In this document: positions 17,822 to 59,590 of the stretch, piece by piece | Layout: each line of letters opens with the position of its first letter | How positions within the stretch are numbered: position 1 is the stretch's first letter | Assembly: GCA_001791995.1 (NCBI GenBank) | Contig: MGFR01000001.1 | Coordinates: 242,638-306,637, forward strand | Source: Candidatus Woesebacteria bacterium RBG_13_46_13 | Lineage (GTDB): Bacteria > Patescibacteriota > Microgenomatia > UBA8517 | Length of the DNA stretch: 64,000 bases | Reading direction: 5' to 3' | Made by a program: the position numbers and the translations under genes | The notes under the pieces: generated by a model | Seen by the model: the letters and a program-made list of their open reading frames with translations, nothing else | What the model was told of the DNA's origin: nothing | Databases searched by the model: none

Positions 17822-17827
17822 ATTGCT

Positions 17828-18502: not shown

Positions 18503-18513
18503 TTTTAGATCAA

Positions 18514-20006: not shown

Positions 20007-20150
20007 AAGAATGTGCGAAGTAATTAATTTAATTCTCGTGAAGGCAAGCAGAATTAAATATTATAAGCAACTTACCGAGTATACACGAATTTACCTATAA
20101 TTGCTTGTAGAGCTAGCTTAGCTGAGCGGGTCGGTCTAGAACCTTATATT

Positions 20151-21371: not shown

Positions 21372-21428
21372 CGGTTTTGAAGGTGTTTTAGGGCTATTCG
21401 AGGCGTCTCGGTCACTGGGGTGCCCTGT

Positions 21429-21503
21429 TTGGCTGCGGGATAGGGATTCGAACCCCAATACCAGCCTCCAGAGGGCTGTGTCCTACCGTTAGACGATCCC
21501 GCA
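21429..21503 (-). tRNA. tRNA-Gln (anticodon CUG)
   Basis: Reverse complement folds as a 75-nt cloverleaf: acceptor TGCGGGA/TCCCGCA with the U1-A72 pair typical of bacterial tRNA-Gln, anticodon stem CAGCC/GGCTG, loop CTCTGGA, T-loop TTCGAAT, encoded CCA. Confidence 0.85.
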
Positions 21504-43276: not shown

Positions 43277-44359
43277 ATGCAGGACCTACGGCAGCAAGTT
43301 ACCGAGTTGGAGGCTAAAATGCAGAATTTGTTATCCTCCATCAGCCTGACCGACAAAAAAACCCAACTCAACGCCCTTGAGGCCAAAACTTTAGATCCCG
43401 CTCTTTGGGAAAATCCCGAGGCGGCCAAATCGCTTTTGCAGGAATTCTCCGATACCAAGCAAGAAATTGAGCAGATGGAAACTCTTACTCAAGAGATATC
43501 CCTTCTGAAAGAATTGGTCCAGGACGAGAAAACCCAGGAGGGGCTGGAGAATGAAATCAGAAAAACCCAGTCAGCCCTGGAAAAGCTCATCCTTAAGTCC
43601 TTCTTGGCTGGAAAGTACGACAAGAAGAACGCTCTGGTTTCGATACATGCGGGCCAAGGTGGTACCGAGGCCATGGATTGGGCCAATATGCTCTTAAGGA
43701 TGTATCTGCGTTTTTGCCAAAGAAGAGATTGGGAAACACACGTTCTCGATACCACAGCCGGGGAGGAGGCGGGAGTAAAAAGCGTAACCTTCAAAGTCGC
43801 CGGTGCCTACGCCTACGGATACCTTAAAGGGGAATCTGGAACACACCGGCTGGTCAGGCAATCTCCTTTTAATGCCGACAATTTGAGACAAACCTCTTTT
43901 GCCCTGGTGGAGGTCTTACCTGAACTCACCGAGGTTGACCTGCCGGATATCGTCATCAAAGACGAGGACTTGGACTGGCAATTTTTCAGGGCCAGCTCTC
44001 AAGGCGGGCAAAACGTTCAGAAAGTATCCAGCGCGGTGAGATTGACCCATATTCCCACCAAAATCGTGGTTACGGCCCAGTCGGAGAGATTCCAGGAACA
44101 AAACAGGAAAAACGCCCTGGATCTTTTGAGGTCCAAGCTTTGGCTCTTGGAGGAGCTTAAGGCCGACGAAACCAAAAAAGAGCTTAAGGGTCAGTACCGA
44201 CCTGCTTCCTGGGGAAACCAAATCCGCTCGTACGTGCTGCATCCCTATAAAATGGTCAAAGACCTAAGAACGGAGGTTGAAACCTCAAACTCGGAAGCGG
44301 TTCTTGACGGTGAGATTGATGAATTTATCGAAGCCGAACTAAAATTGAGCGGTCACTAG
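43277..44359 (+). CDS. prfB: peptide chain release factor 2, contiguous ORF without the programmed +1 frameshift
   Basis: 360 aa. SPF tripeptide (RQSPFNADN) specific for RF2, GGQ motif (SSQGGQNVQKV), and a single uninterrupted frame from Met1. Confidence 0.9.
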   Translation: MQDLRQQVTELEAKMQNLLSSISLTDKKTQLNALEAKTLDPALWENPEAAKSLLQEFSDTKQEIEQMETLTQEISLLKELVQDEKTQEGLENEIRKTQSALEKLILKSFLAGKYDKKNALVSIHAGQGGTEAMDWANMLLRMYLRFCQRRDWETHVLDTTAGEEAGVKSVTFKVAGAYAYGYLKGESGTHRLVRQSPFNADNLRQTSFALVEVLPELTEVDLPDIVIKDEDLDWQFFRASSQGGQNVQKVSSAVRLTHIPTKIVVTAQSERFQEQNRKNALDLLRSKLWLLEELKADETKKELKGQYRPASWGNQIRSYVLHPYKMVKDLRTEVETSNSEAVLDGEIDEFIEAELKLSGH

Positions 44360-44402
44360 ACACTATTCACTAATAAGTATTTCTTGTGTTATAGTAAGAT
44401 TC

Positions 44403-44879
44403 ATGGAGCAGACAGCCACACCTACGCCCACCCCAAAGATACCGGTTGCCATGGGGTCGGTCGTTAAAAAGTTTCCCAAATTCGATATCAAAGGTTCGGC
44501 AATTCTGATCGCAGGGGTGGTTCTGGTGATTTTGGCCGGAATCGGCACCGGCTGGTTACTTTCCGGCAGGGCAAAGATTGCAGGGAGTTCTTCCCAAACC
44601 GTCCCGGGAGCGGAAACCGGTCCCAAGGAAGCCGGATTGGCGGATGAAAAAACATTCAGAGATACAGCTGAGGGAACTTTGGAAGAAGGCGGTATTGCCG
44701 GAGAGGGGACTCACCACTTGGTGCGCGACGGCGGGCCCAGCCAAAATGTGTACCTAACCTCAACCGTAATCGATTTGGAAAGCTTTGTCGGCAAAAAAGT
44801 TCAGGTTTGGGGAGAGACGATATCGGCGCGTAAAGCAGGCTGGCTAATGGATATCGGCAAAATTAAGGTCGTACAATAA
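44403..44879 (+). CDS. hypothetical membrane-anchored protein
   Basis: 158 aa. One TM helix after a Pro/Thr-rich N-terminus. Confidence 0.4.
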   Translation: MEQTATPTPTPKIPVAMGSVVKKFPKFDIKGSAILIAGVVLVILAGIGTGWLLSGRAKIAGSSSQTVPGAETGPKEAGLADEKTFRDTAEGTLEEGGIAGEGTHHLVRDGGPSQNVYLTSTVIDLESFVGKKVQVWGETISARKAGWLMDIGKIKVVQ

Positions 44880-45981
44880 CTCCATCGGGCGTTCTTCCAC
44901 CCAGAAATCCGTCGTCAAAATTATGAAATTCTGCGTATTGGTTTCTTAGCAAATTGAGTGACTCCCGCTCTTTCGCATAATCCGGAAGGGTTTTGCGAAG
45001 AGAAATTGTAAACGTAAGTCTGGCGTCGGAAGGCCAGCTTCTGTGCCTGGCGGGAGATGCGGGATTTACCGGCTCTTCATTTAAGACCAGGTCTGCCGAG
45101 AAAGAAAAATATAAAGGCGGTGAACCCGGCAAAACCCTGAATCTGTAGTCGGAATGTAAGGGGTACCACTCAACCGTTGCGTCGGAGTTGGCCCTGGTTA
45201 TGGCCCTATCCAGGGGGTTTTCTCCATATTGGAGATTGGGGCTGTGGGTTACCCTGGCAACCTCTTCGGTTAGCCCCATCGCACTTGCGAGAAAAACACA
45301 TTTGGACATGGTGGTGACGCTTGCACAGACCCCCCCGGCATCAACATATCCTCCTATCAAAAACCTTTCGGCGTTTCTATGGATTACTCCAGACATATCA
45401 AGGTAAGAATAAACACTTCCGGGGGTAAGAGGTCCATTTTCTTGCTGCCATTCCGAGATGCAGGTTAGGGCGGTTAAAATGTTATATATTTTACTCGGAT
45501 AAATTCTGCTCCTGTCGGAGAATGCATAGGTAGCCACAATATCTTCGTTCTTCCTTCTAAGGCTGCCATTCATGATCTCCATCCTTGATTCATCTTGGCT
45601 AAAGCCAACAACTACATGCATTAAAGGGGGATATATTCCCGTTGCATGGGGAACATCGGCCACCCAAGCAACAGGACCCAGAGCTCCGGGAACCTCATAG
45701 CCTCTTTCCGGTCTAATGGGGGTAAGGATATCCAAAGGGAGCCCGTTAAAATGTACCCACTCCGGATAGTAGTAGGAATTGCCCGGCAAGGTTGAATCAA
45801 TGAGAGAGCCTCCACGGGTCAGAGTCTCTATGTAGACCGGGGTATCCTGGGTAATAAATTTAGGCAAATCGGTCAGGGGTTCGCGGGTTTCAACTTCTTT
45901 AGCTGAGGGGAGGACCATAGAAAAAGCTGCGGTCCCCGCAACTTTTAAAAAATCTCTTCGGCTAAGGCGTTCTTTTTCCAT
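44863..45981 (-). CDS. Tat-signal secreted VanW-like domain protein
   Basis: 372 aa. Twin-arginine signal MEKERLSRRDFLKVAGTAAFSMVLPSA. GGVCASVTTMSKCVFLASAMGL resembles the VanW G(G)GVCQ(V)STTLY motif. Confidence 0.5.
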   Translation of the reverse strand: MEKERLSRRDFLKVAGTAAFSMVLPSAKEVETREPLTDLPKFITQDTPVYIETLTRGGSLIDSTLPGNSYYYPEWVHFNGLPLDILTPIRPERGYEVPGALGPVAWVADVPHATGIYPPLMHVVVGFSQDESRMEIMNGSLRRKNEDIVATYAFSDRSRIYPSKIYNILTALTCISEWQQENGPLTPGSVYSYLDMSGVIHRNAERFLIGGYVDAGGVCASVTTMSKCVFLASAMGLTEEVARVTHSPNLQYGENPLDRAITRANSDATVEWYPLHSDYRFRVLPGSPPLYFSFSADLVLNEEPVNPASPARHRSWPSDARLTFTISLRKTLPDYAKERESLNLLRNQYAEFHNFDDGFLGGRTPDGVIVRP

Positions 45982-46689
45982 TTATTCTTCGGGTATATGG
46001 GGAGAGTTTTTTAACCTCCTTAAGTATCTTTGAATAAGCTCGGCCGGGTCGACAAAAAACCTGTTGATGTAGCTCACTGGAGCTCTATTTGGATACCACC
46101 AGGGGTCTTCCTGCCAGTGGCGCTCAAAAAGCTCGCGGTTGCCGGCATCAAAGTGCAAGTGGCTGAAGCCGTTAGGCCATCCGCTTTTGCCCATTGTTCC
46201 AATAATTTCTCCGGCTCTGTAGTTAGTTCCGACTTCGGCATCCCAGCTGTCCAGATGGCAGTAGCGCGTGTAGATTAAAGTTCCGTCGGGAAGCCTGTGG
46301 CAAAACATGGCAATTTTCCCCAAATCCCTGTAGTCTCCGTCTCCGACAAAAACACAAACGCCGTTCATGATAAGCCTCAGAGGAGTTCCCAAGTCCTCGT
46401 CAAAATCTCCGCAGTTAAAATCGACTCCGATATGATGGCCTCCGTCAAGGGAATAATCCACATTTACGGTTTCCTGAAGATGTCTATAGCCCAGTCCCGG
46501 GAAAACACCGTCCCCCATAATTGCCTCCAGGTCGTTTCCGAAAGGGGGCAAAGAGTAAGTTGCGGTCCTCTCCGGAAAAACATCAAGCGGGAGCTCGGGC
46601 GATTCGCCTTCTTTGCGGGGCATGGCAAAAGAGGCCCCGAGCATTGTCGCAGCTTTCAAAAAATCTCTACGCGATAATTCTTTAGACAT
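45982..46689 (-). CDS. Tat-signal secreted M23-family (LytM) metallopeptidase
   Basis: 235 aa. Tat signal SRRDFLKAATMLGASFAMP. M23 motifs HxxxD (GHHIGVDF) and HxH (FSHLHFD). Confidence 0.75.
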   Translation of the reverse strand: MSKELSRRDFLKAATMLGASFAMPRKEGESPELPLDVFPERTATYSLPPFGNDLEAIMGDGVFPGLGYRHLQETVNVDYSLDGGHHIGVDFNCGDFDEDLGTPLRLIMNGVCVFVGDGDYRDLGKIAMFCHRLPDGTLIYTRYCHLDSWDAEVGTNYRAGEIIGTMGKSGWPNGFSHLHFDAGNRELFERHWQEDPWWYPNRAPVSYINRFFVDPAELIQRYLRRLKNSPHIPEE

Positions 46690-46802
46690 AGACTATAAGG
46701 GGGCAGAAGTTGTGATATTAAACCACATTTCTTCCAAAAATACAATCTATAGGGTAGTTTTGCAGGATAAATTTGAATTAGGCTGATACAATAAATGCGG
46801 AG

Positions 46803-46841
46803 ATAGGACAATTTGATTTCTGCCCCAACCTGTCCTATAAT
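46803..46841 (+). promoter_or_regulatory. consensus sigma70 promoter (TTGATT-17-TATAAT) bracketed by an 8-bp inverted repeat
   Basis: ttgatt at 46813-46818 and tataat at 46836-46841. ATAGGACA (46803-46810) is the reverse complement of TGTCCTAT (46831-46838), overlapping the -10. Oriented toward the TadG-like gene. Confidence 0.5.
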
Positions 46842-46972
46842 GCTCTTACTTAACTGATATTCCAGGGGTTGCCCCTGTTGCAAGTATCGTTAACTACAAG
46901 CTCTTTTACAAGGCAAGAGAGAAGATCCGTGTAAGTCAATCTCTCCCGACTCGGGAGGAAAGGAGTAGGAAG

Positions 46973-48058
46973 ATGAACGCTTGGTCTAGAACCAAGGCCT
47001 TCCTGTCGAGAAGGGAGGCCCAGCGTGGCCAGGTGCTTATCATACTGGCCTTCGGGTTGGTGTTTTTGGCGGCCCTCGTCGGTCTGATGATCGATGTGGG
47101 TATCTACACTACCAACAACATCATTGCCCACAACAACGCAGCGGTTGGTTGTGTCACGGCTGCAGAGGCATACCGCAGAGGCGGAAGCGCATCAGGCGCA
47201 TTTGCCGATATTCTGCAGCAAAACGGGATGCAGCCGGCCACCTATTCTCCGAACGAAGGGACGGGTTTAACCCTCACCCGGGGTTTGGAGAATATGGGAG
47301 ACGGAAGCTGGCGGGCAGCTGTCACTTGGCAGCAGCCGACCGGTTTCTTGGGCATCGTGGGAATCCGCGAGATGACAATCCGCGGCAGATCCCGATGCGT
47401 TGGTCGCGACTCTGGGGGACTGGCACCGATTGCCGTTCGGCAAAGTGCCGTTGAGGATTCGCTCTACGGACTCCCCCCCGAGGAGTACAGCATCCTGGGA
47501 CGTGACCCTTCTTGGGATTTGGCGGACGTTGAGTCCGGTACCAACTTCCGGGGAGCGGTCTTTCTCCACATGTGGTGCGTGCCGTCGACTGATCCGAACT
47601 GCCCGAACATCCGCTATTTCTACCCACTGACCGAGGCACCTCCCACAGCCCAGACTCAAAAGAGGCTGGTGGAGGATTGCTTCAGGGGCATCAACTGCTC
47701 GATCTGGCCCGGGGTAGACCAACGCCTGCCAATCGTGGCGGGTACCTCCGACAACCAGATCTGCCATGCTTTTCAGGATGGCGGTTGGGAAGTCGGGGAC
47801 AAGGTGGTGGTCATCGTTTTCGACGGGGAGGTCTATGACCCCGATCCCACTTACGGCAACTGGGAGAATGTGGCCGTCGTGGGCTATGCGGTCTACGAGA
47901 TAACCCAATTTGAGCCGAATCCCAATAACTGCAACAACGTGATCGCTCGGCTCGCCTCGGACAGGATTTACGACAGCCTGGATGACATCCCGGCCGACGT
48001 GATCCTTTTGAGGTCTCGGGAAATCTCGTGGGACTACGGAGGATCAATCCCATGGTAG
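46973..48058 (+). CDS. TadG/TadE-like N-terminal domain (Flp-pilus-assembly pseudopilin-like) protein, high-GC
   Basis: 361 aa. The N-terminus RREAQRGQVLIILAFGLVFLAALVGLMIDVG matches the Tad_N/TadG family. The C-terminal domain is unassigned. Clearly GC-richer than the backbone. Confidence 0.55.
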   Translation: MNAWSRTKAFLSRREAQRGQVLIILAFGLVFLAALVGLMIDVGIYTTNNIIAHNNAAVGCVTAAEAYRRGGSASGAFADILQQNGMQPATYSPNEGTGLTLTRGLENMGDGSWRAAVTWQQPTGFLGIVGIREMTIRGRSRCVGRDSGGLAPIAVRQSAVEDSLYGLPPEEYSILGRDPSWDLADVESGTNFRGAVFLHMWCVPSTDPNCPNIRYFYPLTEAPPTAQTQKRLVEDCFRGINCSIWPGVDQRLPIVAGTSDNQICHAFQDGGWEVGDKVVVIVFDGEVYDPDPTYGNWENVAVVGYAVYEITQFEPNPNNCNNVIARLASDRIYDSLDDIPADVILLRSREISWDYGGSIPW

Positions 48059-48450
48059 CCAGAAGGAAGGACAAGGGACAGGGCCTGGTCGAGTTCGCCT
48101 TGATCGCCCCGATCCTGATACTGCTCCTGCTTTTGGCCATTGACCCCTTCTTCAAGGCGGTCAATATCGCCCTCGCCAAGTACTACACGTTTCAGGCCGC
48201 GCGGGAGGCGTCGATCTTTCTGGCTGACGGGACTCACTCCTGTGATTCCTGGGTCCGCTCACACGTGAGCGAACCTACTCTCCTGATGGGAACCGGCTGG
48301 ACACTTGAAATCGCACCGTGTCCTACCGACTCGTCTTGGAGTCAGGTCAGCGGGAGCACCGTCACTGCTACCTTCAACTGGGAGCAGTCCACCGTCTGGT
48401 GGGAAGGTCCTTGGACCGGAGCGATGGTGACCCGCGACGTCTTCCAGTGA
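48052..48450 (+). CDS. TadE-like protein, high-GC
   Basis: Start at the ATG overlapping the upstream stop (cATGGtag). RKDKGQGLVEFALIAPILILLLLLAIDPFFKAVNIALAKYYTFQAAREA matches the TadE family (PF07811). Confidence 0.55.
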   Translation: MVARRKDKGQGLVEFALIAPILILLLLLAIDPFFKAVNIALAKYYTFQAAREASIFLADGTHSCDSWVRSHVSEPTLLMGTGWTLEIAPCPTDSSWSQVSGSTVTATFNWEQSTVWWEGPWTGAMVTRDVFQ

Positions 48451-48454
48451 GTCA

Positions 48455-48499
48455 GGAGGGTACCTGGTTAGCGACCTAATTGGTCAACAGGTACCCTCC
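48455..48499. terminator. 12-bp perfect-stem hairpin between convergent genes
   Basis: ggagggtacctg (48455-48466) ...21-nt loop... caggtaccctcc (48488-48499). Sits between the TadE-like gene (plus) and the amidase/M23 gene (minus). Confidence 0.5.
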
Positions 48500-48534
48500 G
48501 TACAATCTCTCTTGCCTTGTTAGTTTTTTTGAAG

Positions 48535-50220
48535 TTATTCTTCTCTGAGTTCCCGCGGACTATTTACTTCTTGAGACCTTTGTTCGATAAATTCAACAGG
48601 ATTAATATATCTGTTTCTTATCCATGTAGCATTTACCCCCGAGGGGGCGTAAGGTCTATGGCCCATATCGGTGTCCCAGGTGGCCCCATAGGCAATCGCC
48701 AAATGCAGATGGCTGTCGAGTTGTCCGCCCGAGGCGCCCATTGTGCCTATCACCTGGCCTTTTCGGGTAATTACCCCAACCCTGAGGTTAATATCGTTTA
48801 AGTGTCCGTAAAGACTGATTACCTCGCTGCCTTCGGGTAGTCGATGGCGGATGATGACGGTTTTACCCAGCCCATGGCCCGGAATTTCTTCTGCGTAAAT
48901 ACACTCGCCGTTGGCAACGGCCTTGATGGGTGTTCCCAAATCGGAATTGATTACTCCTTGAGGACCCGTATTAATATCTACACCTTCGTGATTTTCGGGA
49001 CTTAGATAGGTATTGCCCAATCTGATGTCTCCATCGATGGGCATTCTGAAAGAATCCGCAATCGGGATGGGTGCTCCTTCCCTAAAGGCCGCATCATAGA
49101 CTTCCCAGTATTTACTTCTTGCTTCCCAGTCGAATACTTCAACAGGGTACCCCCAGGTCGTTAAAACCAGATAGTCCCGGATGAATTTAAAATATCTTCT
49201 GGCTGCTTCTTTTTTATCTACCCCGTCCCTTTCGAAAGGTCCAAAAACAAGCTCCTTGGCAGCATTTTCCTCTTCGGTTAAGGCTTTAGCGCCCAATAAA
49301 AGCTTTAACTCGGCCAGATAGGCCCTGCCGGGATCTATTCTATCCAGTTGAACTTCGTAGTGACCCACAAGGTTAGTGGCGGGAATGCTGTCTCTTTTCA
49401 TAATGGCCCAGATAACGCTTAAGAGATTAGCCGTTTTTTGATTATCGGGATGGGTCTCCGAGTCGAAATCTCTACCGGTTACCTCTATTGCCCAGGAATA
49501 CCAGTTGGGGTCGGTGGAGCGGCGAAACCAGTCTTGGGCCGGAGAGATTACCCCTTGGGGAAATCCATTTTCCCTGCCCAGCCGATAAAGAGAGCTTAGG
49601 TAATGGTTAGCGCCCCTGTTGTATCCTTCGTAATCCAAGGGAATGGCGATGTGGGAGGCAAGAGTTGCGTCTCCCAACCTCGGGGTTTGCGTTTGGACAA
49701 TTGAGACAGGGCTTTCAAGTGTTGCCGGTGCCCCCGGGGGAATACTGCCGACCAGAAAATGGGCACTGGTTGTTGTTTCGTAGGATGTTCCTCCCAGGGT
49801 AGAGATATTTCTGCGTCCGTCAAAACCCCAAATATAATTTTGGATGGTGGTTTCGGGATCCGCCGAATCCGAAAACCAGTGCAGCACTATTGCCCTGGGC
49901 CTGTCCGTTCTTAACCTGTCGGCCTCACGATTTCTCCGCCGGCTCCATTCGGTGGGGAAAAACGGTGCTTGTCCGCGGATGGCCCCGTTTCTGCCCAAAA
50001 GAGACAGAAACCCGTCTTCGTTGATTAGGGTCGGTGGGGTTAACTCGATGATGCCCCTGGGGTATTCGGGGAGTCTATCCAGCGATAGAGTGGGCCATTC
50101 GCCCTCCGGAGGAAGGGATCGCAAGGATTCTGGAACAAAAGCAGATGCCGCAGTCAATCCGCTAAGTTTGAGAAAGTCCCTTCTTGATAATTTATCCAAA
50201 CCGTCTGTTTCCTTCATCAA
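48535..50220 (-). CDS. Tat-signal secreted bifunctional cell-wall hydrolase: N-acetylmuramoyl-L-alanine amidase-like (Amidase_2) + C-terminal M23 peptidase
   Basis: 561 aa. Tat signal LSRRDFLKLSGLTAASAFVP. The middle region (RAIVLHWFSD...TTSAHFLVGS) is Amidase_2/PGRP-like. The C-terminus carries M23 HxxxD (HEGVDIN) and HxH (SHLHLAI) motifs. Confidence 0.65.
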   Translation of the reverse strand: MMKETDGLDKLSRRDFLKLSGLTAASAFVPESLRSLPPEGEWPTLSLDRLPEYPRGIIELTPPTLINEDGFLSLLGRNGAIRGQAPFFPTEWSRRRNREADRLRTDRPRAIVLHWFSDSADPETTIQNYIWGFDGRRNISTLGGTSYETTTSAHFLVGSIPPGAPATLESPVSIVQTQTPRLGDATLASHIAIPLDYEGYNRGANHYLSSLYRLGRENGFPQGVISPAQDWFRRSTDPNWYSWAIEVTGRDFDSETHPDNQKTANLLSVIWAIMKRDSIPATNLVGHYEVQLDRIDPGRAYLAELKLLLGAKALTEEENAAKELVFGPFERDGVDKKEAARRYFKFIRDYLVLTTWGYPVEVFDWEARSKYWEVYDAAFREGAPIPIADSFRMPIDGDIRLGNTYLSPENHEGVDINTGPQGVINSDLGTPIKAVANGECIYAEEIPGHGLGKTVIIRHRLPEGSEVISLYGHLNDINLRVGVITRKGQVIGTMGASGGQLDSHLHLAIAYGATWDTDMGHRPYAPSGVNATWIRNRYINPVEFIEQRSQEVNSPRELREE

Positions 50221-50348: not shown

Positions 50349-51971
50349 TTAGTTAGCCCTGACGTAGCCCATCCGCTCGAATTCCTCGATACGGGATTCC
50401 CCGACTTCGATGGGGATTTGGGTGGTTGGATGAATCATTTTCACCCTGCCCTCCGTATGCTCCGGATCGGGACTGTAGCGGATTCCCCTCATGGTTTCGG
50501 GCTGGCGTGGTCTGGTGGGCTCATCGACCTGGACGGGAACCTGTTCGGCTCCTATCCTTCTGGGGCGACCGCCCTTGGCGCGGAGCTTGTTGTCCTCCAC
50601 CTCCAGACGTTGGTTGACGCGTTGCTCGCGCTTGGCCATCGCCTCATCGATTGCATTGGTGACTTCGATGAGGTGGCTCCATTGGTAGGTAGCCCACAAG
50701 GCGGGGACTTCAGTCCCAAGCCTGACCAAAACGCTGTCCCAGTTGGGATCTTCGGGGAGACTGACCTGATAGCCATCCGTAAGTACGGTCTCTTTCTCTT
50801 TGAGATCCGCGACCCGTTTCTGCAGGGCCAGGATGACTTTCTGCCAGTTAACAAGTTCCCCGACGTCCTTGGCGGCGCTGTCCAGCTGCGCTCCGATTTC
50901 TCCGAGGACCAGATCCAGCTCGTCCCACTTGTGGACATCCGCCCACAAGACTGGAACATGCTGGGTGAGTACCCCCGAGACTTCGACAAGCGCATCCGGC
51001 TCGGAAGGCACTGCGCCTTCGACGAGCGAGTCGTTCAGGAACTGGACGAAGCGGTCCCTGGTGGAATCCAGCCTGGCCTCCAGTTTTGCAATGTCGGAAG
51101 CCTTCTTGATGAATCCGTGCTGGATATCCGCTGAGGCCTTCTCCACGAACTCGGCGATGACCTCGGGGTCGGTTCCTTGCTCCTTGGCCAGGGCAATCTG
51201 ACTCCTACACCAGACGATGTAGGGCCGTATCATGCCCAGCTTCAGAATTTTGGATCCGTCCCCAACCGGAGATTCGGAGAGCTCCAGAAGTCCAGGAATA
51301 TTCCTGGACTTAGCGAGAGCCCTATGGCTCCGCTCCTTGCGTACGAGGTAGCCGAGGGCATAGCGGAAAGCCTTTTCGGCACCCGCCAGCCTCTTCCACC
51401 GACGTGCACGTTCCAACTCCTCAGCCTTCTTGAGTTTCTCGTGCTCCTCGATGAGAACCGGGAGCTCGATTGGGGTAATCTTGCGACCGCCCCAAAACTG
51501 GTTGGGAGTTGTTGCGTACTCCAGTTTCTCAATGAGCTGTTTCTGCTCTCGGGCCAATGTTTCAGTTCTGGCCAAGAGCTTCTTCAAGCCCTTGATGGAG
51601 TACTGCGATATCTGCAGGAATCGGTCGGGGGCTTTATCCTCCTGATACCAGAAGGTTACCCACCAACCCCAGAAACCGCCGAGCCTCTCGGTCAGAGGCG
51701 GGGAGAGTTCCTGGTAAGCGTCGTACACGCTGGTGTAGAGCTTTTCGATTTCTCCGCAGATGTTGACTGCCTTTCCACCGACCCTGATGACGATGTCGCG
51801 GTAGTCGAAATAGAGCTTACCGGTCCACGTCCACTCCTCCTCGATGCTGTTCCAGAGCTCGGTAATCGCAAGCATCAACTTGCGCTTGTTTCTCCCGTGG
51901 ACAACCAGGAGGATTACCGAGAAAACCAGTAGGGCGACCATAATGCCACCCCGAATCCAAAGGCCGTTCAT
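50349..51971 (-). CDS. hypothetical membrane-anchored 540-aa protein, GC-rich orphan
   Basis: Longest ORF of the patch, with an N-terminal TM (IMVALLVFSVILLVV) and no recognisable domain. The plus-strand ORFs 50340..51134 and 51177..51932 are treated as shadow ORFs of this GC-rich gene. Confidence 0.45.
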   Translation of the reverse strand: MNGLWIRGGIMVALLVFSVILLVVHGRNKRKLMLAITELWNSIEEEWTWTGKLYFDYRDIVIRVGGKAVNICGEIEKLYTSVYDAYQELSPPLTERLGGFWGWWVTFWYQEDKAPDRFLQISQYSIKGLKKLLARTETLAREQKQLIEKLEYATTPNQFWGGRKITPIELPVLIEEHEKLKKAEELERARRWKRLAGAEKAFRYALGYLVRKERSHRALAKSRNIPGLLELSESPVGDGSKILKLGMIRPYIVWCRSQIALAKEQGTDPEVIAEFVEKASADIQHGFIKKASDIAKLEARLDSTRDRFVQFLNDSLVEGAVPSEPDALVEVSGVLTQHVPVLWADVHKWDELDLVLGEIGAQLDSAAKDVGELVNWQKVILALQKRVADLKEKETVLTDGYQVSLPEDPNWDSVLVRLGTEVPALWATYQWSHLIEVTNAIDEAMAKREQRVNQRLEVEDNKLRAKGGRPRRIGAEQVPVQVDEPTRPRQPETMRGIRYSPDPEHTEGRVKMIHPTTQIPIEVGESRIEEFERMGYVRAN

Positions 51972-52163: not shown

Positions 52164-52904
52164 GTGATTCAATTTAAAAAAGTCAGCAAATCCTTCGGGA
52201 CAATCAAGGCTCTGGAAGAGGTCTCCTTTGAGGTCGGGAAAGGAGAGTTTGTCTATATCACCGGCCCCTCCGGAGCCGGCAAAACCACACTTCTGAAGCT
52301 TATCCTCAGGGAGTATCAACCCGACTCCGGGGAGATAGTCCTGGAGGGGGTAGATATCACCAAACTTTCCGATGAACAAATTCCAGAATACCGCCAAAAG
52401 ATAGGGGTGGTTTTCCAGGATTTTAAAGTCTTACCCGAAAGAACCGTCAGGGAAAACGTAGAGGTTTCTTTGGCTGTTATCGGAGTTGCCCAAGAGGCAT
52501 GGTCGGCCAGAGTCGGTCAGGTTTTAAAACTGGTGGGGCTGGCCGAAAGAGCCGATCTTTTTCCCAACCAACTTTCCGGAGGAGAAATCCAAAGGGTTTC
52601 TTTGGCACGGGCATTGGTGGTTAATCCGAAAATTATTCTCGCCGATGAACCGACCGGAAACTTGGACTGGGAAACGGCGGATTCAATGATGGAGCTTTTC
52701 GAGAAAATCAACAAAGAGGGGAAAACAATAATTATGGCGACCCACAACAAAGTAATCGTCGATAAATTCAAAAAAAGGGTGATTAAGCTCAAGGGCGGGA
52801 AGAACGTGGGCAAGGAAAAGGTTCACGAGCTGGAAAAAGAGCCCAAAAAAGAAGAAAATGAAAAAGGGGAAGGCAAGATGAAGGTTAAGGTGGAGGAAGT
52901 ATGA
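52164..52904 (+). CDS. ftsE: cell-division ABC ATPase FtsE
   Basis: 246 aa. Walker A GPSGAGKTT, signature LSGGEIQRVSLARAL, Walker B ILADEPTGNLD, and a Lys/Glu-rich C-terminal tail. Confidence 0.88.
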   Translation: MIQFKKVSKSFGTIKALEEVSFEVGKGEFVYITGPSGAGKTTLLKLILREYQPDSGEIVLEGVDITKLSDEQIPEYRQKIGVVFQDFKVLPERTVRENVEVSLAVIGVAQEAWSARVGQVLKLVGLAERADLFPNQLSGGEIQRVSLARALVVNPKIILADEPTGNLDWETADSMMELFEKINKEGKTIIMATHNKVIVDKFKKRVIKLKGGKNVGKEKVHELEKEPKKEENEKGEGKMKVKVEEV

Positions 52905-53815
52905 ATATCCATTTCAAAACCGCATTCGATTATATAAAAAGGGCTCCTTTTCAGGCCCTATCGGCCATCTCGGTTCTGACCCTGACCTTCTTCGTATCGA
53001 CAATGGTGGCAGTTCTGGCCTATTCATCCGGCAATCTCCTGAAGTATTTCGAGACCAGACCTCAGGTAATTGCCTTCCTTAAAAATGAAGTTACCCCCCA
53101 GGATGTTTCGGCGCTTCAAAACAAACTCACCGCGGATGAGCGGGTGAAAGAGGTCCGCTATGTTTCCAAAGAAGAAGCTCTAAACATTTACAAAGAGGCC
53201 ACATCAGATAACCCGCTATTATCGGAACTGGTCAGCCCGTCGATTTTCCCGGCGTCTTTGGAGTTTTCCTTGGCAAATTTAAGTTATGCGGAGGATATTA
53301 TTGCCCAGGTTAAAAAAGAATCTATTGTCGACCAGGTCGGTTTTACCGCCAGCCTTGGGGGAGAATCTACCCTTCAGGACGTTGTTTCCAGGCTCAAAAC
53401 CATCACCCTTTATGTCAGAATTGGGGGTATGGTTTTGGTCGGGATGCTGGGTGCCGTGTCGTTTCTGGTGCTTATCGTCATCATCGGCATGCGGATGGCA
53501 ACCCGCAAGGGGGAGATTGAAATACTGGATTTAATCGGGGCCACCCCGAAATTTATCCGGAGCCCGATTGTCATTGAAGCTCTGATTTATTCCTTTGCCG
53601 GGGTACTCTTGGGCTGGGCCATATCGTTTCTCTTTTGGCTCTACGTAACCCCCAATATCGTTGCCTACTTTGGGGAAATCCCGGTTCTGCCCAAAGGCAC
53701 TTGGGATTTTCTTATCCTGCTGGTAATTATTTTGGGGGCGGAGCTTTTGATTGGTTCTTTATTGGCGCTTTTGGGAAGCATGCTTGCGGTCTCCCGTGCC
53801 AAGAGAACCCGATGA
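52901..53815 (+). CDS. ftsX: cell-division permease-like protein FtsX
   Basis: 304 aa. Four TM helices with a large first extracellular loop. Overlaps the ftsE stop. Confidence 0.8.
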   Translation: MNIHFKTAFDYIKRAPFQALSAISVLTLTFFVSTMVAVLAYSSGNLLKYFETRPQVIAFLKNEVTPQDVSALQNKLTADERVKEVRYVSKEEALNIYKEATSDNPLLSELVSPSIFPASLEFSLANLSYAEDIIAQVKKESIVDQVGFTASLGGESTLQDVVSRLKTITLYVRIGGMVLVGMLGAVSFLVLIVIIGMRMATRKGEIEILDLIGATPKFIRSPIVIEALIYSFAGVLLGWAISFLFWLYVTPNIVAYFGEIPVLPKGTWDFLILLVIILGAELLIGSLLALLGSMLAVSRAKRTR

Positions 53816-54939
53816 GAGAAACAGTAAAAAAAATTCTTCTTCTGGCCACAGTCTTTGCTCTCGTCTTCTTCGGTCTAAAAATTAGAAATGTCTTGGCCGA
53901 GGCCTGCGCAGACAAGACAAATCTCAACGACAGAATTAACTGCTACGAGGATGAGCTTTCCCGCCTTGGGGCGCAATCCAAAACTCTTTCTAACCAGATT
54001 GCCCAGTTCGATGCCCAGATAAAACTCACCACCCTTAAGATATCCCAGACAGAGGAAAAAATTTCTCTTCTGGGAGGAAGGATAGACCAGCTGGAAGGCT
54101 CTCTGGATGCTCTTTCGGCCGCATTTAGCTCAAGAGCGGTAGAAACCTACAAGATGGCCAGGGTCGGGGACCCGGTTTTACTTATCGTTTCGGCTCCGGA
54201 TTTGGGTGGAGCAATTTCGAGATTCCACTATTTGCAAAGAATCCAGGAGGCGGACAGGGATTTACTGCAAAAGCTTCAGACCGCCCAAGATACATATAAG
54301 GTAGAAAAGACCGACCAGGAGCAACTGCAGGATGAGCTTGAGAAACAGAAAGCCAACTTAGATGCGCAGAAGAAAGCAAAAAATGCACTTTTAGCCCAGA
54401 CCAAAAACGACGAAAAGAGATATCAGCAGCTTTTGAGTCAGGCCATTGCGGAGAAAGCAGCAGTTGAGCGGGCGCTGGTGTCCGGTGTCAAAGTTGGCCC
54501 GGTTAAAAGAGGCGATCCAATAGCTTTGGTAGGTAACTCCGGGTATCCGGGTTGCTCTACGGGAAAGCATTTACACTTTGAAATCCGAAAAAACAATACG
54601 TGGGTGGATCCGGGAGGCTATCTCTCCGGAAAAACCGTCATCGATGAACAAAACGGAGGAGGTAACGTCAGCTTGGGCTCGGGTAGCTGGCCTTGGCCAA
54701 TAGAAGATACGGTTCGCCTCACACAATTTTATGGGCATACTCCGTATTCTTGGAAGTATGCCTACTCGGGCGGGCTCCACACCGGATATGACATGGTTTC
54801 AACTTCAAGCGATGTAATAAGAGCTCCTGCGGACGGAACTCTCTTTAAGTCTGCACAATCCTGTGGCTCCAGTACAATAAACATCGCTTACATCGAGCAT
54901 GGGGATAATGTGGTTAGTCTTTATCTCCACGTCCAGTAA
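53812..54939 (+). CDS. EnvC-like coiled-coil M23 peptidase-domain protein (FtsEX-associated), with an additional C-terminal M23-like module
   Basis: Start at MRETVKK (ATG overlapping the ftsX stop, ATGA). TM/signal, coiled coil, M23-like GNSGYPGCSTGKHLHFEIR, and a second HxGxD...HxH-like segment (GLHTGYDM...LYLHVQ). Confidence 0.7.
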   Translation: MRETVKKILLLATVFALVFFGLKIRNVLAEACADKTNLNDRINCYEDELSRLGAQSKTLSNQIAQFDAQIKLTTLKISQTEEKISLLGGRIDQLEGSLDALSAAFSSRAVETYKMARVGDPVLLIVSAPDLGGAISRFHYLQRIQEADRDLLQKLQTAQDTYKVEKTDQEQLQDELEKQKANLDAQKKAKNALLAQTKNDEKRYQQLLSQAIAEKAAVERALVSGVKVGPVKRGDPIALVGNSGYPGCSTGKHLHFEIRKNNTWVDPGGYLSGKTVIDEQNGGGNVSLGSGSWPWPIEDTVRLTQFYGHTPYSWKYAYSGGLHTGYDMVSTSSDVIRAPADGTLFKSAQSCGSSTINIAYIEHGDNVVSLYLHVQ

Positions 54940-58199: not shown

Positions 58200-58997
58200 T
58201 TGAAATATGTATTATTATTTCTATACATGAGAAGGTTAGTTTTCTTAGGCTTCGCTTTCGCTTTCCTTTTTGGGTTATTTATGACCCCTGTTCTTTCGGC
58301 AAAACCGACTGATATCCCCGAAGAAGACGGGATTTATGACGAGCCAGGACATCCCGGAGTGAAAGTTAGGGTTTTTGTGCACAGGGAAAGACCTGCTAAG
58401 CCCAGTACACCACCCACCCTTGTTTGTGAACTCACCGACCCGAGTTCCCCCGCTATCGTTGGAAAAGAGGCCTGGAAACTGCCATCAACTTGGACTTATA
58501 ACCTAAATCCTTCCAGTGTTCCTGCCTCGGTCGGCTCCGGAAGTTTGCAAACAATTGCAGCAAACGGATTTAATGATTGGCAGAGCGCATCCGGGAATAA
58601 AGTCCATTTTGCCAGAGGCTCGGATACGACAGTCTCGAGACAAGCGTATGACGGCGTTAACGTAGTTACCTGGGGAAGAACTTCAGGAAGCGCCTTGGGG
58701 GTTACCTATATAAGGTATAACGGTACAACAGGTGAGGCTTTAGACGTGGATACTATTATGAATAGCAAGTTTACCTGGAGCTGGTCAAACTCCGTTAGTT
58801 GCGCCTACTCTTCAACCTATGATGCGGAAAATATTATGACCCACGAGCTGGGACACTGGCTGGGTTTGACCGATGAGTACGATGCAGCCAACTATCAAAA
58901 CGCGACAATGTACGGATATGGCGCCAAAGGAGAAGTGAAGAAAGTTACCTTAACCACTGGAGATAGCGCGGGCGCATTCGCTATCTATAATCCTTGA
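58200..58997 (+). CDS. secreted metzincin zinc metalloprotease (snapalysin/M7-like HExxHxxGxxD with Met-turn)
   Basis: 265 aa with signal peptide. HELGHWLGLTDEYD (compare snapalysin HETGHVLGLPD) and a downstream Met-turn-like ATMYGYG. Confidence 0.65.
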   Translation: MKYVLLFLYMRRLVFLGFAFAFLFGLFMTPVLSAKPTDIPEEDGIYDEPGHPGVKVRVFVHRERPAKPSTPPTLVCELTDPSSPAIVGKEAWKLPSTWTYNLNPSSVPASVGSGSLQTIAANGFNDWQSASGNKVHFARGSDTTVSRQAYDGVNVVTWGRTSGSALGVTYIRYNGTTGEALDVDTIMNSKFTWSWSNSVSCAYSSTYDAENIMTHELGHWLGLTDEYDAANYQNATMYGYGAKGEVKKVTLTTGDSAGAFAIYNP

Positions 58998-59590
58998 TGA
59001 CAAAACCCAAAATACTTCATTTTTTGGGAAACCTTTTAATCTTCATCGCTGCCGTAATTTTGGTTCTTACCTTTACTCCCGTATTTGAGCAGGAAGCCAA
59101 GTACCAGATCAAGCACACTTTCAATTCGCCTTACAAAGAAAAAGATTTAACCCCGCCCAATACGGATTTTGCCATCGTCATACCCAAAATAGGTGCGGTT
59201 GCACCGGTTATTGCCAACACCGACCCCTTGGACCCCAAAAAATACATGCCCGTTTTGTATAAAGGGGTTGCCCACGCCAAAGGAACGGCTTTCCCCGGAG
59301 AGTTTGGAAACACTTATATTTTCGCCCACTCGACGGACACTTTTTATAATGTGGGCCGCTATAACGCCGTTTTTTACCTGATTGGCAAGCTCGAGAAGGG
59401 GGACGAGATAGATATTTACTATAAGGGTGAGAAGATCGTCTATGAGGTAGTGGAAAAGAAGGTTGTTGGGGCTGATGCCGTAAAGTATCTGGGGAAGCTG
59501 GGAGAGTGGAACACCTTGACTCTGCAGACCTGCTACCCACCGGGGACAACCCTTAAAAGGCTGGTAGTTGTGGCCAATGAAAAAATATAG
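58994..59590 (+). CDS. sortase (TLxTC catalytic motif)
   Basis: 198 aa. N-terminal TM anchor, catalytic His region (YIFAHST) and the active-site TLQTC motif. Confidence 0.8.
   Translation: MMTKPKILHFLGNLLIFIAAVILVLTFTPVFEQEAKYQIKHTFNSPYKEKDLTPPNTDFAIVIPKIGAVAPVIANTDPLDPKKYMPVLYKGVAHAKGTAFPGEFGNTYIFAHSTDTFYNVGRYNAVFYLIGKLEKGDEIDIYYKGEKIVYEVVEKKVVGADAVKYLGKLGEWNTLTLQTCYPPGTTLKRLVVVANEKI

What the first reader, a model, noticed from the sequence alone, without database searches (positions are those of the whole stretch)
44863..50220. Cluster of three twin-arginine-signal secreted cell-wall hydrolases
Three minus-strand genes begin with canonical Tat motifs (SRRDFLK + hydrophobic + A-x-A). Their products are a VanW-like protein, an M23 endopeptidase, and a two-domain Amidase_2 + M23 enzyme. 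Exporting folded peptidoglycan hydrolases via Tat is unusual. The cluster could serve daughter-cell separation, or attack of a host or prey cell wall if the organism is an episymbiont. No Tat translocase gene is in this window.
Basis: partly seen in the sequence, partly recalled or inferred. Interest (0 to 1): 0.65.

Follow-up and report, generated by a model that had tools for sequence, protein, structure and literature searches.

The report
Tat-signal wall enzymes beside pilin genes
Three cell-wall enzymes of a tiny uncultured (Patescibacteria) bacterium carry twin-arginine export signals. They are two separate gene modules, not one hydrolase cluster, and the largest enzyme belongs to a family that sits in or beside Tad-pilus operons in Chloroflexota bacteria, which points to wall remodelling for a pilus-like machine.

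Summary
Three minus-strand ORFs (A 44863-45981, B 45982-46689, E 48535-50220) each start with SRRDFLK. This heptamer occurs only there in the six-frame translation (about 0.0008 expected). TIGR01409 passes its cut-off for B and E and just misses for A. Their hydrophobic cores are much weaker than those of Sec signals in the same window.

The domain calls hold. B is an intact M23. E is Amidase_2 plus M23 with every catalytic residue present. A is a divergent VanW-like protein, and VanW is now known as an L,D-transpeptidase domain, not a hydrolase.

- Tat export of wall amidases is classical (AmiA/AmiC).
- The genes form two modules, independently present or absent between prfB and ftsEX in related Microgenomates.
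  - B-A is fused into one protein in some relatives.
  - C-D/F-E combines TadG-like and TadE-like pseudopilin genes, E, and a membrane-anchored protein F.
- In 42 of 53 Chloroflexota-type loci, E's homologue directly abuts a complete Tad pilus operon.

Best reading: Tat-exported remodelling of the cell's own wall, with E linked to a pilus-like apparatus. tatAC could not be checked. A conserved inverted repeat flanks the pseudopilin pair.

The parts
44863..45981 (-). A: 372-aa protein with a Tat-type signal and a divergent VanW-like domain. Putative L,D-transpeptidase/carboxypeptidase. Second gene of the B-A pair.
   Evidence: ORF. TIGR01409 16.2 against 16.7. Family of 31 proteins; the only taxon names sources give are Patescibacteria group and Candidatus Woesebacteria. 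C219, H246 and D267 (NSDATV) invariant. 15 of 29 members hit Pfam VanW just below its cut-off. AF2 model pLDDT 84, pTM 0.85, with no fold match or sequence match in the PDB, as reported for VanW.
45982..46689 (-). B: 235-aa M23 metalloendopeptidase with a Tat-type signal. Its stop codon directly abuts the start of A.
   Evidence: Pfam M23 39.7 bits; TIGR01409 21.8. The HxxxD (HIGVD), Y.H (YCHL) and HxH (HLH) motifs can be read in the sequence. Orthologues in L034, L035 and L062 keep the RR motif. Fused to A in P0118 and P0119.
46813..46841 (+). Promoter-like site (TTGATT-17-TATAAT) upstream of C. Conserved in L028, L003, L033, L039 and L040.
46907..46922 (+). Left arm of the conserved inverted repeat (TACAAGGCAAGAGAGA), in the 5' leader of C.
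46973..48058 (+). C: 361-aa TadG-like pseudopilin (N-terminus ..RGQVLIILAFGLVFLAALVGLMIDVG).
   Evidence: Orthologue in L033 has a weak Pfam Tad (PF13400) hit. tblastn links to Chloroflexota TadG. N-termini compared. GC 0.58 against about 0.47 for the genome.
48028..48450 (+). D: TadE-like pseudopilin. The likely start is the ATG at 48052 (132 aa). It has the class-III signal KG/QGLVEFALIAP.
   Evidence: Pfam TadE 25.0 bits, above the 22.9 cut-off. Orthologue starts. tblastn hits to Chloroflexota TadE genes.
48455..48499 (.). Conserved GC-rich hairpin between the convergent genes D and E (GGAGGGTACCTG...CAGGTACCCTCC).
   Evidence: 8 of 16 pairs show compensatory changes across 7 CPR loci. Coordinates.
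48506..48521 (-). Right arm of the conserved inverted repeat (AACAAGGCAAGAGAGA on the minus strand), just before the E stop codon at 48535-48537.
48535..50220 (-). E: 561-aa protein with a Tat-type signal, a small N-terminal domain, Amidase_2, a helical linker and M23. All catalytic residues are present.
   Evidence: AF2 pLDDT 88.5, pTM 0.87. Foldseek hits to DipM, lysostaphin and LytM at 1e-9 to 1e-6.
50349..51971 (-). F: 540-aa protein with one N-terminal membrane helix and a long helical, probably cytoplasmic, body. Lies upstream of E on the same strand. Function unknown.
   Evidence: No Pfam or NCBIfam hit. Only 2 database relatives, and NCBI calls a shorter 408-aa product. Weak but significant orthologues at the same position in L028, L033, L038, L039 and L040. 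GC 0.57.
43277..44879 (+). Left border of the variable site: prfB (43277-44359) and a conserved 158-aa membrane protein (44403-44879).
52164..54939 (+). Right border: ftsE (52164-52904), ftsX (52901-53815) and a PcsB-like coiled-coil M23 protein (about 53812-54939).

Best explanation
The region between prfB and ftsEX holds two independent envelope modules. Their three secreted enzymes are targeted to the Tat pathway and act on the cell's own peptidoglycan.

**Module 1 (B then A)** pairs an active M23 endopeptidase with a VanW-type L,D-transpeptidase/carboxypeptidase. This is a cut-and-re-crosslink pair, made as one fused polypeptide in some relatives.

**Module 2** has four genes: TadG-like pseudopilin C, TadE-like pseudopilin D, membrane-anchored protein F, and enzyme E. 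E combines an N-acetylmuramoyl-L-alanine amidase (Amidase_2) with an M23 domain. Its family is a standing neighbour, on the same strand, of the Tad (Flp) pilus operon in Anaerolineales/Chloroflexota. There it directly follows cpaF/tadA or precedes tadE-tadE-tadG.

The most likely job of E is to strip or cut peptide stems locally, so that a Tad/type-IV-like filament primed by the TadE/TadG minor pilins can pass through a monoderm wall. Flagella, T4SS and T6SS have dedicated wall-remodelling enzymes that play the same role.

**Shown:** the ORFs, motifs, domains, intact catalytic residues, synteny, the fusion, and the Tad linkage.

**Inferred:** actual Tat export, the enzymatic specificities, the pilus-passage role, and the existence elsewhere in the genome of tatAC, a prepilin peptidase and a pilus motor.
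For: **Tat targeting**
- SRRDFLK occurs 3 times against about 0.0008 expected.
- TIGR01409 is above its cut-off for B and E.
- The hydrophobic cores are weak compared with Sec signals in the same window.
- In E's family the first Arg is kept in 85 of 85 aligned N-termini and the second in 80 of 85.
- 19 of 29 A-family members hit TAT_signal, and B orthologues keep RR.
- TatA and TatC have been reported in Microgenomatia (PMC9166423).

**Enzymes**
- Amidase residues H114/E246/H287/E289/D296 are invariant in 100 of 100 homologues. The M23 residues H411, D415, H473, H504 and H506 are all present in the window protein.
- A family profile hits DipM, zoocin A and AmpD. The fold search hits LytM-type structures.
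- A's family shows sub-threshold VanW hits over the region holding its invariant Cys, His and Asp. VanW is an L,D-transpeptidase domain.

**Modularity**
- L035 has only B-A. L028, L003, L039 and L040 have C-D-E(-F) and no A or B in the stretch held.
- The window and L033/L034 have both modules, in different order.
- Every locus long enough to show its flanks sits between prfB and ftsEX.
- P0118 and P0119 are B+A fusions.

**Tad link**
- L030 and L032 carry the full set next to E: TadE, TadE, TadG, CpaB, TadZ, TadB, TadC, TPR-LysM and CpaF.
- 42 of 53 non-CPR loci have a Tad gene within 1.5 kb of E, on the same strand in 41 of those 42. Aligned CpaF-to-E gaps are as small as 11 nt.
- Ten of the other 11 loci lack flanking sequence on at least one side.
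- C and D are homologous to Chloroflexota TadG and TadE.

**Monoderm wall**
- The window encodes a sortase and an LPATG surface protein.
Against: - No tatA or tatC, and no cpaF, tadB, tadC, tadZ or cpaB, lies in the 64-kb window. The rest of the genome could not be read.
- Pfam TAT_signal is just below its cut-off for all three proteins, and no dedicated signal predictor was available.
- The fused B-A proteins carry Sec-type rather than RR signals, so Tat is not intrinsically required by these folds.
- In the CPR only the two pseudopilin genes remain next to E, so the pilus link there is inherited context, not demonstrated function.
- In all ten CPR loci the modules lie next to the ftsEX division genes.
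- A itself gives no VanW hit, and the family hits are sub-threshold.
- Most Chloroflexota homologues lack the first His of HxH (His in only 14 of 100). There the M23 domain may be regulatory, so function may differ between the phyla.
Confidence: 0.55

Rival explanations
1. Cell-division enzymes. The three proteins split the septum and separate daughter cells, perhaps under FtsEX control, like Tat-exported AmiA/AmiC with LytM activators in E. coli.
For: - In all ten CPR loci the modules lie beside ftsE-ftsX and a PcsB-like M23 gene.
- Tat-exported division amidases are a known precedent.
- E joins an amidase to a LytM-type domain, and its best structural neighbours include the regulators DipM and EnvC.
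Against: - FtsEX already has its own partner gene directly downstream.
- Each module is missing from some close relatives: L035 lacks E, and L028 lacks A and B. That is unexpected for a core division function.
- In Chloroflexota, E's family is tied to Tad operons, not division genes.
- The position may simply reflect a shared insertion hot spot.
Confidence: 0.22
2. Offensive enzymes. An episymbiont uses a TadG/TadE-tipped filament together with E (and B) to breach the peptidoglycan of its host or prey.
For: - All cultivated CPR bacteria are episymbionts, and their type IV pili mediate host contact (PMC11623550, abstract listed).
- The Tad-like Kil system of Myxococcus causes local degradation of prey peptidoglycan by a hydrolase that has not been identified (PMC8460266).
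- The full M23 catalytic set is kept mainly in the CPR clade, whereas most Chloroflexota homologues have lost the first His of HxH.
Against: - Tat only carries a protein across the producer's own membrane.
- No cell-wall-targeting domain and no immunity gene is evident.
- A is a probable cross-linker, not a lysin.
- The family is widespread in Anaerolineales, which are not known to be predators.
- No host is known for this organism.
Confidence: 0.1
3. The RR motifs are not working Tat signals. The proteins go out through Sec, or stay anchored by an uncleaved N-terminal helix, and the shared heptamer is inherited from a common ancestral leader.
For: - Pfam TAT_signal is below its cut-off for all three, and TIGR01409 is below it for A.
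- No tat gene lies in the window or in about 135 kb of related CPR loci.
- The B-A fusion proteins use Sec-type signals.
- The leader-coding DNA of A and B is 88% identical over 24 nt (repeat D3).
Against: - Both arginines are almost invariant across proteins that are only 31-57% identical, from two phyla.
- The hydrophobic cores are far weaker than Sec signals from the same genome.
- Basic residues follow the hydrophobic core in A and B.
- TatA and TatC have been reported in Microgenomatia.
Confidence: 0.1
4. A horizontally acquired island, or the remnant of a phage lysis cassette, with no integrated cellular role.
For: - GC is 0.53-0.55 across 46-52 kb against about 0.47 elsewhere.
- Gene content at this one site varies between relatives.
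- An inverted repeat flanks C-D.
- The B-A fusion locus L037 has a holin-family gene next door.
Against: - Only C and F are GC-rich. A, B and E have genome-typical GC of 0.48-0.50.
- No integrase, phage or transposase gene was seen among the called genes of these loci.
- The modules keep the same position in relatives whose prfB is only 63% identical.
- CPR sequences of E form one clade separate from the Chloroflexota sequences. The tree is neighbour-joining with midpoint rooting and no bootstrap support.
Confidence: 0.03

Closest known systems
AmiA/AmiC of E. coli and Salmonella (Tat-exported N-acetylmuramoyl-L-alanine amidases activated by the LytM factors EnvC and NlpD)
   Same: Zinc amidases that cut peptide stems off glycan strands. 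They are exported by Tat and work together with a LytM/M23-type domain.
   Different: AmiA and AmiC have the Amidase_3 fold, whereas E is Amidase_2 (AmpD/AmiD-like). In E the M23 domain is fused in cis and, in the window protein, has its full catalytic set. AmiA and AmiC act in division, whereas E's family is linked to Tad operons.
Dedicated wall-remodelling enzymes of envelope-spanning machines: FlgJ (flagellum), PleA (Caulobacter pili and flagellum), VirB1 (T4SS), CwlT (ICEBs1), TagX (T6SS). Listed from general knowledge.
   Same: A peptidoglycan-cleaving enzyme encoded in or beside the operon of the machine that must cross the wall. CwlT is also a two-domain enzyme in a monoderm.
   Different: Those are mostly lytic transglycosylases, muramidases or NlpC/P60 enzymes. 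My searches found no Amidase_2+M23 enzyme, no Tat-signal enzyme and no Tad-operon-encoded wall enzyme.
VanW-domain L,D-transpeptidases Ldt4 and Ldt5 of Clostridioides difficile (PMC11348318)
   Same: A family with a conserved Cys, His and Asp and no fold relative in the PDB. Sub-threshold Pfam VanW matches cover the catalytic region.
   Different: A lacks the PG_binding_4 and G5 domains and the membrane anchor. It has a Tat-type signal and an extra N-terminal beta-rich domain. It is paired or fused with an M23 peptidase, and no member reaches the Pfam cut-off.
Lysostaphin/LytM-type M23 endopeptidases and the degenerate LytM regulators DipM and EnvC
   Same: The same fold (Foldseek 1e-9 to 1e-6). 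B and the window's E carry HxxxD, the catalytic His, and HxH.
   Different: There is no SH3b or LysM targeting domain. Most Chloroflexota homologues of E have F or Y in place of the first His of HxH, which resembles the non-catalytic regulators.
Tad (Flp, type IVc) pilus loci, including the transcribed Anaerolineales cluster (PMC4877987)
   Same: C and D have the TadG and TadE class-III N-termini. The Chloroflexota relatives of E sit beside TadE-TadE-TadG-CpaB-TadZ-TadB-TadC-(TPR-LysM)-CpaF.
   Different: The window has only the two pseudopilin genes. No motor, platform, Flp pilin or prepilin peptidase lies within 64 kb.

Membership tests
Tat (twin-arginine) signal peptide | S/T-R-R-x-F-L-K consensus in the n-region | tested here: met
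   SRRDFLK is present in all three proteins.
Tat (twin-arginine) signal peptide | Curated HMM score above its cut-off | tested here: inconclusive
   TIGR01409 (cut-off 16.7): B 21.8 and E 20.2 pass, A 16.2 fails. Pfam PF10518 (cut-off 22.7): 22.4, 22.5 and 17.7, all below.
Tat (twin-arginine) signal peptide | Short, weakly hydrophobic h-region compared with Sec signals | tested here: met
   Best 12-residue Kyte-Doolittle mean is 1.2-1.6, against 2.5-3.3 for eight Sec-type signals in the window.
Tat (twin-arginine) signal peptide | TatA and TatC encoded in the same genome | not testable with these tools
   Absent from the window (a weak test). The source contig could not be retrieved. The literature reports TatA and TatC in Microgenomatia.
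Peptidase_M23 (B, and the C-terminal domain of E) | Pfam score above its cut-off, plus HxxxD, a catalytic His, and the HxH motif | tested here: met
   39.7 and 61.9 bits against 28.7. B motifs read from the sequence. E residues H411, D415, H473, H504 and H506. Foldseek matches to LytM, lysostaphin and DipM.
Amidase_2 (E) | Pfam score above its cut-off | tested here: inconclusive
   25.6 bits against a cut-off of 26. The family profile hits AmpD at 5e-4 and AmpDh2 at 9e-3.
Amidase_2 (E) | Zinc ligands His, His and Asp, plus a catalytic Glu | tested here: met
   H114, H287, D296 and E246 are invariant in 100 of 100 homologues. Their roles are assigned by analogy with AmpD, not verified on a structure.
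VanW (PF04294) L,D-transpeptidase domain (A) | Pfam score above its cut-off | tested here: not met
   A gives no VanW hit at E<=1. 15 of 29 family members do, with a best score of 26.6 against 27. A is therefore VanW-like, not a demonstrated member.
VanW (PF04294) L,D-transpeptidase domain (A) | Conserved Cys-His-Asp triad, and a fold with no PDB relative | tested here: inconclusive
   C219, H246 and D267 are invariant. There is no Foldseek or sequence hit in the PDB, as reported for VanW.
TadE/TadG pseudopilins (D, C) | Class-III signal (G/xxxxEF for TadE) followed by a hydrophobic helix, plus a family HMM hit | tested here: met
   D: Pfam TadE 25.0 bits against 22.9, with KG/QGLVEFALIAP. C: the TadG-type N-terminus is visible. 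The Pfam Tad hit is only weak and only in the L033 orthologue. tblastn links C to Chloroflexota TadG.
Complete Tad pilus system | CpaF/TadA ATPase, TadB/TadC platform, Flp pilin and TadV peptidase | tested here: not met
   tblastn with the Chloroflexota CpaF, TadB, TadC, TadZ and CpaB found nothing in the window. Flp and TadV were not searched for directly, and the rest of the genome is unknown.

The most novel reading that the evidence does not exclude
E's family could be a so-far undescribed wall-breaching component of Tad-type pili in monoderm bacteria: a Tat-exported amidase fused to a LytM domain. If so, this Patescibacteria lineage has kept a minimal kit of TadG/TadE tip pseudopilins plus a fully catalytic version of the enzyme. 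It may use that kit to open the peptidoglycan of a host cell at the contact site rather than its own wall. This would be the kind of hydrolase postulated, but never identified, for the Tad-like Kil killing system of Myxococcus. A related corollary is that reduced CPR genomes may keep Tat largely to export wall enzymes.
Probability: 0.12. Interest if true: 0.8.

Novelty: new variant of a known kind. Interest (0 to 1): 0.45.

Why it matters
Every domain here is known, and Tat export of wall amidases is textbook, so the finding as first written is fairly ordinary. Three points add value.

1. **A wall enzyme in Tad operons.** A two-phylum family of Amidase_2-LytM proteins with a nearly invariant twin-arginine signal is a regular neighbour of Tad pilus operons. 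My literature searches found no description of a wall-remodelling enzyme encoded in a Tad operon. How type IV-like filaments cross thick monoderm walls is poorly understood, and this family offers a concrete, testable candidate.

2. **A cut-and-re-crosslink pair.** An M23 endopeptidase is paired, and sometimes fused, with a VanW-like protein. This extends the newly recognised VanW L,D-transpeptidase class into Patescibacteria.

3. **A reason to keep Tat.** In the window plus about 135 kb of related CPR sequence, the only RR-type signals found belong to these wall enzymes. This hints at why such reduced genomes retain Tat.

Tried and rejected
**Lookups and libraries that failed**
- Retrieving the source contig to look for tatAC failed. 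Exact-protein lookups for E and P0001 found nothing. The lookup for B returned only two short contigs.

**Searches with no useful result**
- Foldseek of the A model against the PDB gave only noise. A profile of A's family found no PDB sequence relative.
- Rfam found only two tRNAs in the window.
- F has only two database relatives and no domain hit.
- Searching related CPR loci for tatA or tatC gave nothing.

**Ideas considered and set aside**
- Recent horizontal transfer of the hydrolases, suggested by the GC rise at 46-52 kb. The rise comes only from C and F, while A, B and E have genome-typical GC. In a neighbour-joining tree (no bootstrap) the CPR copies of E form their own clade.
- A mobile-element origin. 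No integrase or transposase was seen, and the direct repeats found are short, probably chance, matches.
- An invertible C-D segment. All 7 CPR loci show the same orientation, so the idea is neither supported nor excluded.

**Literature**
Searches for a Tad-associated amidase or hydrolase found no prior description. The library does not cover subscription journals.

Full report
**1. The observation**

- A: 44863-45981, 372 aa.
- B: 45982-46689, 235 aa.
- E: 48535-50220, 561 aa from TTG, or 560 aa from the adjacent ATG, which is the start NCBI uses.

Each begins with a short polar stretch followed by SRRDFLK. In the six-frame translation of all 64 kb this heptamer occurs three times, only at these N-termini. 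About 0.0008 occurrences are expected. The looser pattern [ST]RRxF[LI]K averaged 0.01 matches in 200 codon shuffles. None of the other 69 ORFs in my gene set has such a motif.

- TIGR01409 (cut-off 16.7) scores B at 21.8, E at 20.2 and A at 16.2.
- Pfam TAT_signal is just under its cut-off for B and E, and lower for A.
- The hydrophobic cores are weak. The Kyte-Doolittle mean is 1.2-1.6 over the best 12 residues, against 2.5-3.3 for eight Sec-type signals from the same window. This is the classical Tat/Sec distinction.
- Only E has a strict A-x-A (ASA). B has SFA and A has PSA. None has a lipobox cysteine.

**2. What the three proteins are**

*B* is a Peptidase_M23 (39.7 bits). Its HxxxD, Y.H and HxH motifs can be read directly in the sequence.

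*E* combines M23 (61.9 bits) with Amidase_2.
- Amidase_2 scores 25.6 bits, a hair under the cut-off of 26.
- A profile of 36 homologues hits the M23 proteins DipM and zoocin A, and the Amidase_2 enzymes AmpD and AmpDh2, in the PDB.
- Across 100 homologues the amidase residues H114, E246, H287, E289 and D296 never vary.
- The AlphaFold model is confident and compact (pLDDT 88.5, pTM 0.87). Its C-terminal domain matches LytM, lysostaphin and DipM structures at 1e-9 to 1e-6.
- The window protein has all five M23 catalytic or ligand residues.
- Most homologues carry F or Y at position 504, the first His of HxH, which is His in only 14 of 100. Those 14 lie mainly in the clade that holds the window protein.

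*A* gives no VanW hit by itself.
- Its family has 31 proteins. The only taxon names given by sources are Patescibacteria group and Candidatus Woesebacteria.
- 15 of 29 members match Pfam VanW, the best at 26.6 bits against a cut-off of 27. The matches cover the region with the family's invariant Cys219, His246 and Asp267.
- The model is good (pLDDT 84, pTM 0.85). It has no structural or sequence relative in the PDB, which is what has been reported for VanW.
- VanW domains were shown in 2024 to be Cys-His-Asp L,D-transpeptidases with carboxypeptidase activity (PMC11348318).

It makes A a probable cross-linking or trimming enzyme, not a hydrolase in the lytic sense.

**3. The organism and the neighbourhood**

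NCBI names the source a Patescibacteria group MAG. The closest named relatives are Microgenomates and Woesebacteria. The window encodes a sortase and a 1438-aa LPATG surface protein, so the envelope is of the monoderm type.

The gene order, with neighbours identified through the syntenic loci, is:

secA, tgt, LytR_C protein, small protein, prfB, 158-aa membrane protein | A, B, C, D, E, F | ftsE, ftsX, PcsB-like M23 protein.

- C (46973-48058) has a TadG-type N-terminus.
- D (48028/48052-48450) is a Pfam TadE protein with the class-III signal KG/QGLVEFALIAP.
- F (50349-51971), upstream of E, has one N-terminal membrane helix and a long helical body. It has no recognisable domain.

**4. Two modules, not one cluster**

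Ten related CPR loci show the following content at the prfB-ftsEX site:

| Locus | Content |
|---|---|
| L035/L036 | B-A only |
| L028, L003, L039, L040 | C-D-E(-F); no A or B in the stretch held |
| L038 | F and E next to ftsE-ftsX; the locus ends within E |
| L062 | E-D-C followed by a B homologue; the contig ends there |
| L033/L034 (Woesebacteria) | both modules, with B-A on the ftsE side |
| Window | both modules, with B-A on the prfB side |

In P0118 and P0119, B and A are fused into one protein, which carries a Sec-type leader. Such a fusion is strong evidence that B and A work together. F is weakly but significantly conserved at the same position next to E (phmmer 2e-34 and 1e-16).

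The GC rise seen at 46-52 kb comes only from C and F. A, B and E have genome-typical GC.

**5. The key clue: E's family and Tad pili**

E has about 100 homologues, and nearly all carry the RR motif. Genome hits are one Microgenomates genome plus 24 Anaerolineales, Chloroflexia or Chloroflexota genomes.

In Chloroflexota loci with annotated genes, E's homologue sits at the edge of a full Tad operon. The operon is TadE, TadE, TadG, CpaB (SAF), TadZ, TadB, TadC, a TPR-LysM protein, and CpaF.

Across the 53 non-CPR loci collected:
- 42 have a Tad gene within 1.5 kb of E, on the same strand in 41 of those 42.
- E either directly follows cpaF (aligned gaps as small as 11 nt) or precedes a small HD-domain gene and tadE.
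- Ten of the 11 exceptions are contigs that lack flanking sequence on at least one side.

The Anaerolineales Tad cluster is known and is transcribed (PMC4877987). I found no paper that describes an amidase as part of it, or of any tad locus.

C and D are homologous to the Chloroflexota TadG and TadE. The CPR module therefore looks like a reduced version of the same association. No CpaF, TadB, TadC, TadZ or CpaB lies in the window.

In a neighbour-joining tree the CPR copies of E form one clade apart from the Chloroflexota radiation (midpoint-rooted, no bootstrap support). That fits an old split or an old transfer, not a recent acquisition.

**6. Is Tat plausible here?**

I could not read the rest of the genome. 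The window holds no TatA- or TatC-like gene.

Indirect support:
- The first arginine is kept in 85 of 85 aligned N-termini of E's family and the second in 80 of 85, although these proteins share only 31-57% identity.
- 19 of 29 members of A's family hit TAT_signal.
- B orthologues keep RR.
- A freshwater CPR survey reports TatA and TatC in Microgenomatia (PMC9166423).

In the window plus roughly 135 kb of related CPR loci, the only RR-type leaders found belong to orthologues of A, B and E.

Tat export of wall amidases is not unusual in itself. AmiA and AmiC are standard examples (PMC6231687). A plausible reason, which is my inference, is that zinc enzymes can be metal-loaded in the cytoplasm before export. 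The Sec-type leaders on the fused B-A proteins show that the folds do not strictly need Tat.

**7. Most likely mechanism**

*Module 1.* B cleaves cross-links and A re-forms or trims them as 3-3 links. This would allow local remodelling of the wall.

*Module 2.* E removes or cuts peptide stems locally, in connection with a filament primed by the TadE/TadG minor pilins. This would be the monoderm counterpart of the dedicated wall enzymes of flagella, T4SS and T6SS.

The steps shown and the steps inferred are listed under the best explanation. I put this at about 0.55.

The main rival is a division role beside FtsEX (about 0.22). It is weakened in three ways: each module is dispensable in close relatives, FtsEX has its own partner gene, and the Chloroflexota context points to Tad pili.

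An offensive role against a host wall (about 0.1) is the most interesting reading and has a conceptual precedent. The Tad-like Kil system of Myxococcus provokes local degradation of prey peptidoglycan by an unidentified hydrolase (PMC8460266). Nothing here shows delivery beyond the producer's own envelope.

**8. A side finding in the same locus**

The C-D pair is bracketed by a conserved inverted repeat. The core ACAAGGCAAGAGAGA lies at 46908, and its complement lies at 48506, just before E's stop codon.
- The two arms are present, always just outside C's start and D's stop, in all 7 CPR loci that contain both ends. The surrounding coding DNA is only about 68-70% identical.
- The repeat is absent from every Chloroflexota locus.
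- The left arm lies in the leader downstream of a conserved promoter. The right arm follows a hairpin with compensatory changes in 8 of 16 pairs.
- The orientation of C-D is the same in all seven loci.

The element could pair the 5' and 3' ends of the C-D mRNA. It could be a shared protein- or RNA-binding site, since the same sense sequence would lie in the C leader and in E's 3' UTR. It could also be an inversion switch. I could not tell these apart.

**9. Verdict**

The individual parts are known kinds: Tat signals, M23, Amidase_2, a VanW-like domain, and TadE/TadG.

Three things are new as far as I could find:
- the regular association of a Tat-signal Amidase_2-LytM family with Tad operons;
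- its reduced form in a CPR lineage;
- the paired or fused M23 and VanW-like module.

Interest is moderate (0.45), and I class it as a new variant of a known kind.

Noticed in passing
window 46907-46922 and 48506-48521 (also L028, L003, L033, L039, L040, L062): A conserved inverted repeat (core AAGGCAAGAGA, 15 nt exact in the window) brackets the TadG-like/TadE-like gene pair in all 7 CPR loci that hold both ends. It is absent from the Chloroflexota loci. It could pair the 5' and 3' UTRs, be a shared regulator site, or be an inversion switch. The orientation is identical in all seven.
   Followed up: partly
window 48455-48499: A GC-rich hairpin lies between the convergent genes D and E. Across 7 CPR loci, 8 of its 16 pairs show compensatory changes. 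It is probably a bidirectional terminator or a 3'-end stabiliser.
   Followed up: partly
window about 53812-54939 (ORF listed from 53635): The coiled-coil protein downstream of ftsE-ftsX has a weak PcsB coiled-coil hit. Its M23 domain motifs are in permuted order: HxH comes before HxxxD, and Y.H sits at the very C-terminus. The HxH-before-HxxxD order is the same in the orthologues of L035 and L028. This looks like a circularly permuted LytM domain.
   Followed up: partly
window 25407-26084 and 10115-11029: A YkuD-type L,D-transpeptidase and an S11 DD-carboxypeptidase lie in the same window. Together with A, the genome would therefore carry two unrelated L,D-transpeptidase types.
   Followed up: no
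window 58994-59590 and 59648-63964: A sortase gene sits next to a 1438-aa repetitive surface protein that ends in LPATG, a membrane helix and a basic tail. This is a Gram-positive-style surface anchoring system.
   Followed up: no
window about 17300-21500: A low-GC stretch (gene GC 0.35-0.43, against about 0.47 elsewhere) ends at tRNA-Gln (21430-21503). It holds unannotated genes, including a DUF4352 protein. It may be an island integrated at the tRNA.
   Followed up: no
L037 10001-12446: The fused M23+VanW-like protein P0118 carries a Sec-type leader. It lies elsewhere in its genome, directly upstream of a DUF5654 gene and a Phage_holin_4_2 family gene.
   Followed up: no
L030, L032 and most Chloroflexota loci: The Chloroflexota Tad operon also encodes a TPR-LysM protein just before cpaF. 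A small HD_5-domain protein usually lies next to E's homologue. The operon thus carries a second peptidoglycan-binding component and a possible signalling component.
   Followed up: no
window 50349-51971: NCBI annotates F as a 408-aa product, whereas the longest ORF is 540 aa and includes an N-terminal membrane helix. Orthologues of 543-577 aa support the longer form.
   Followed up: partly
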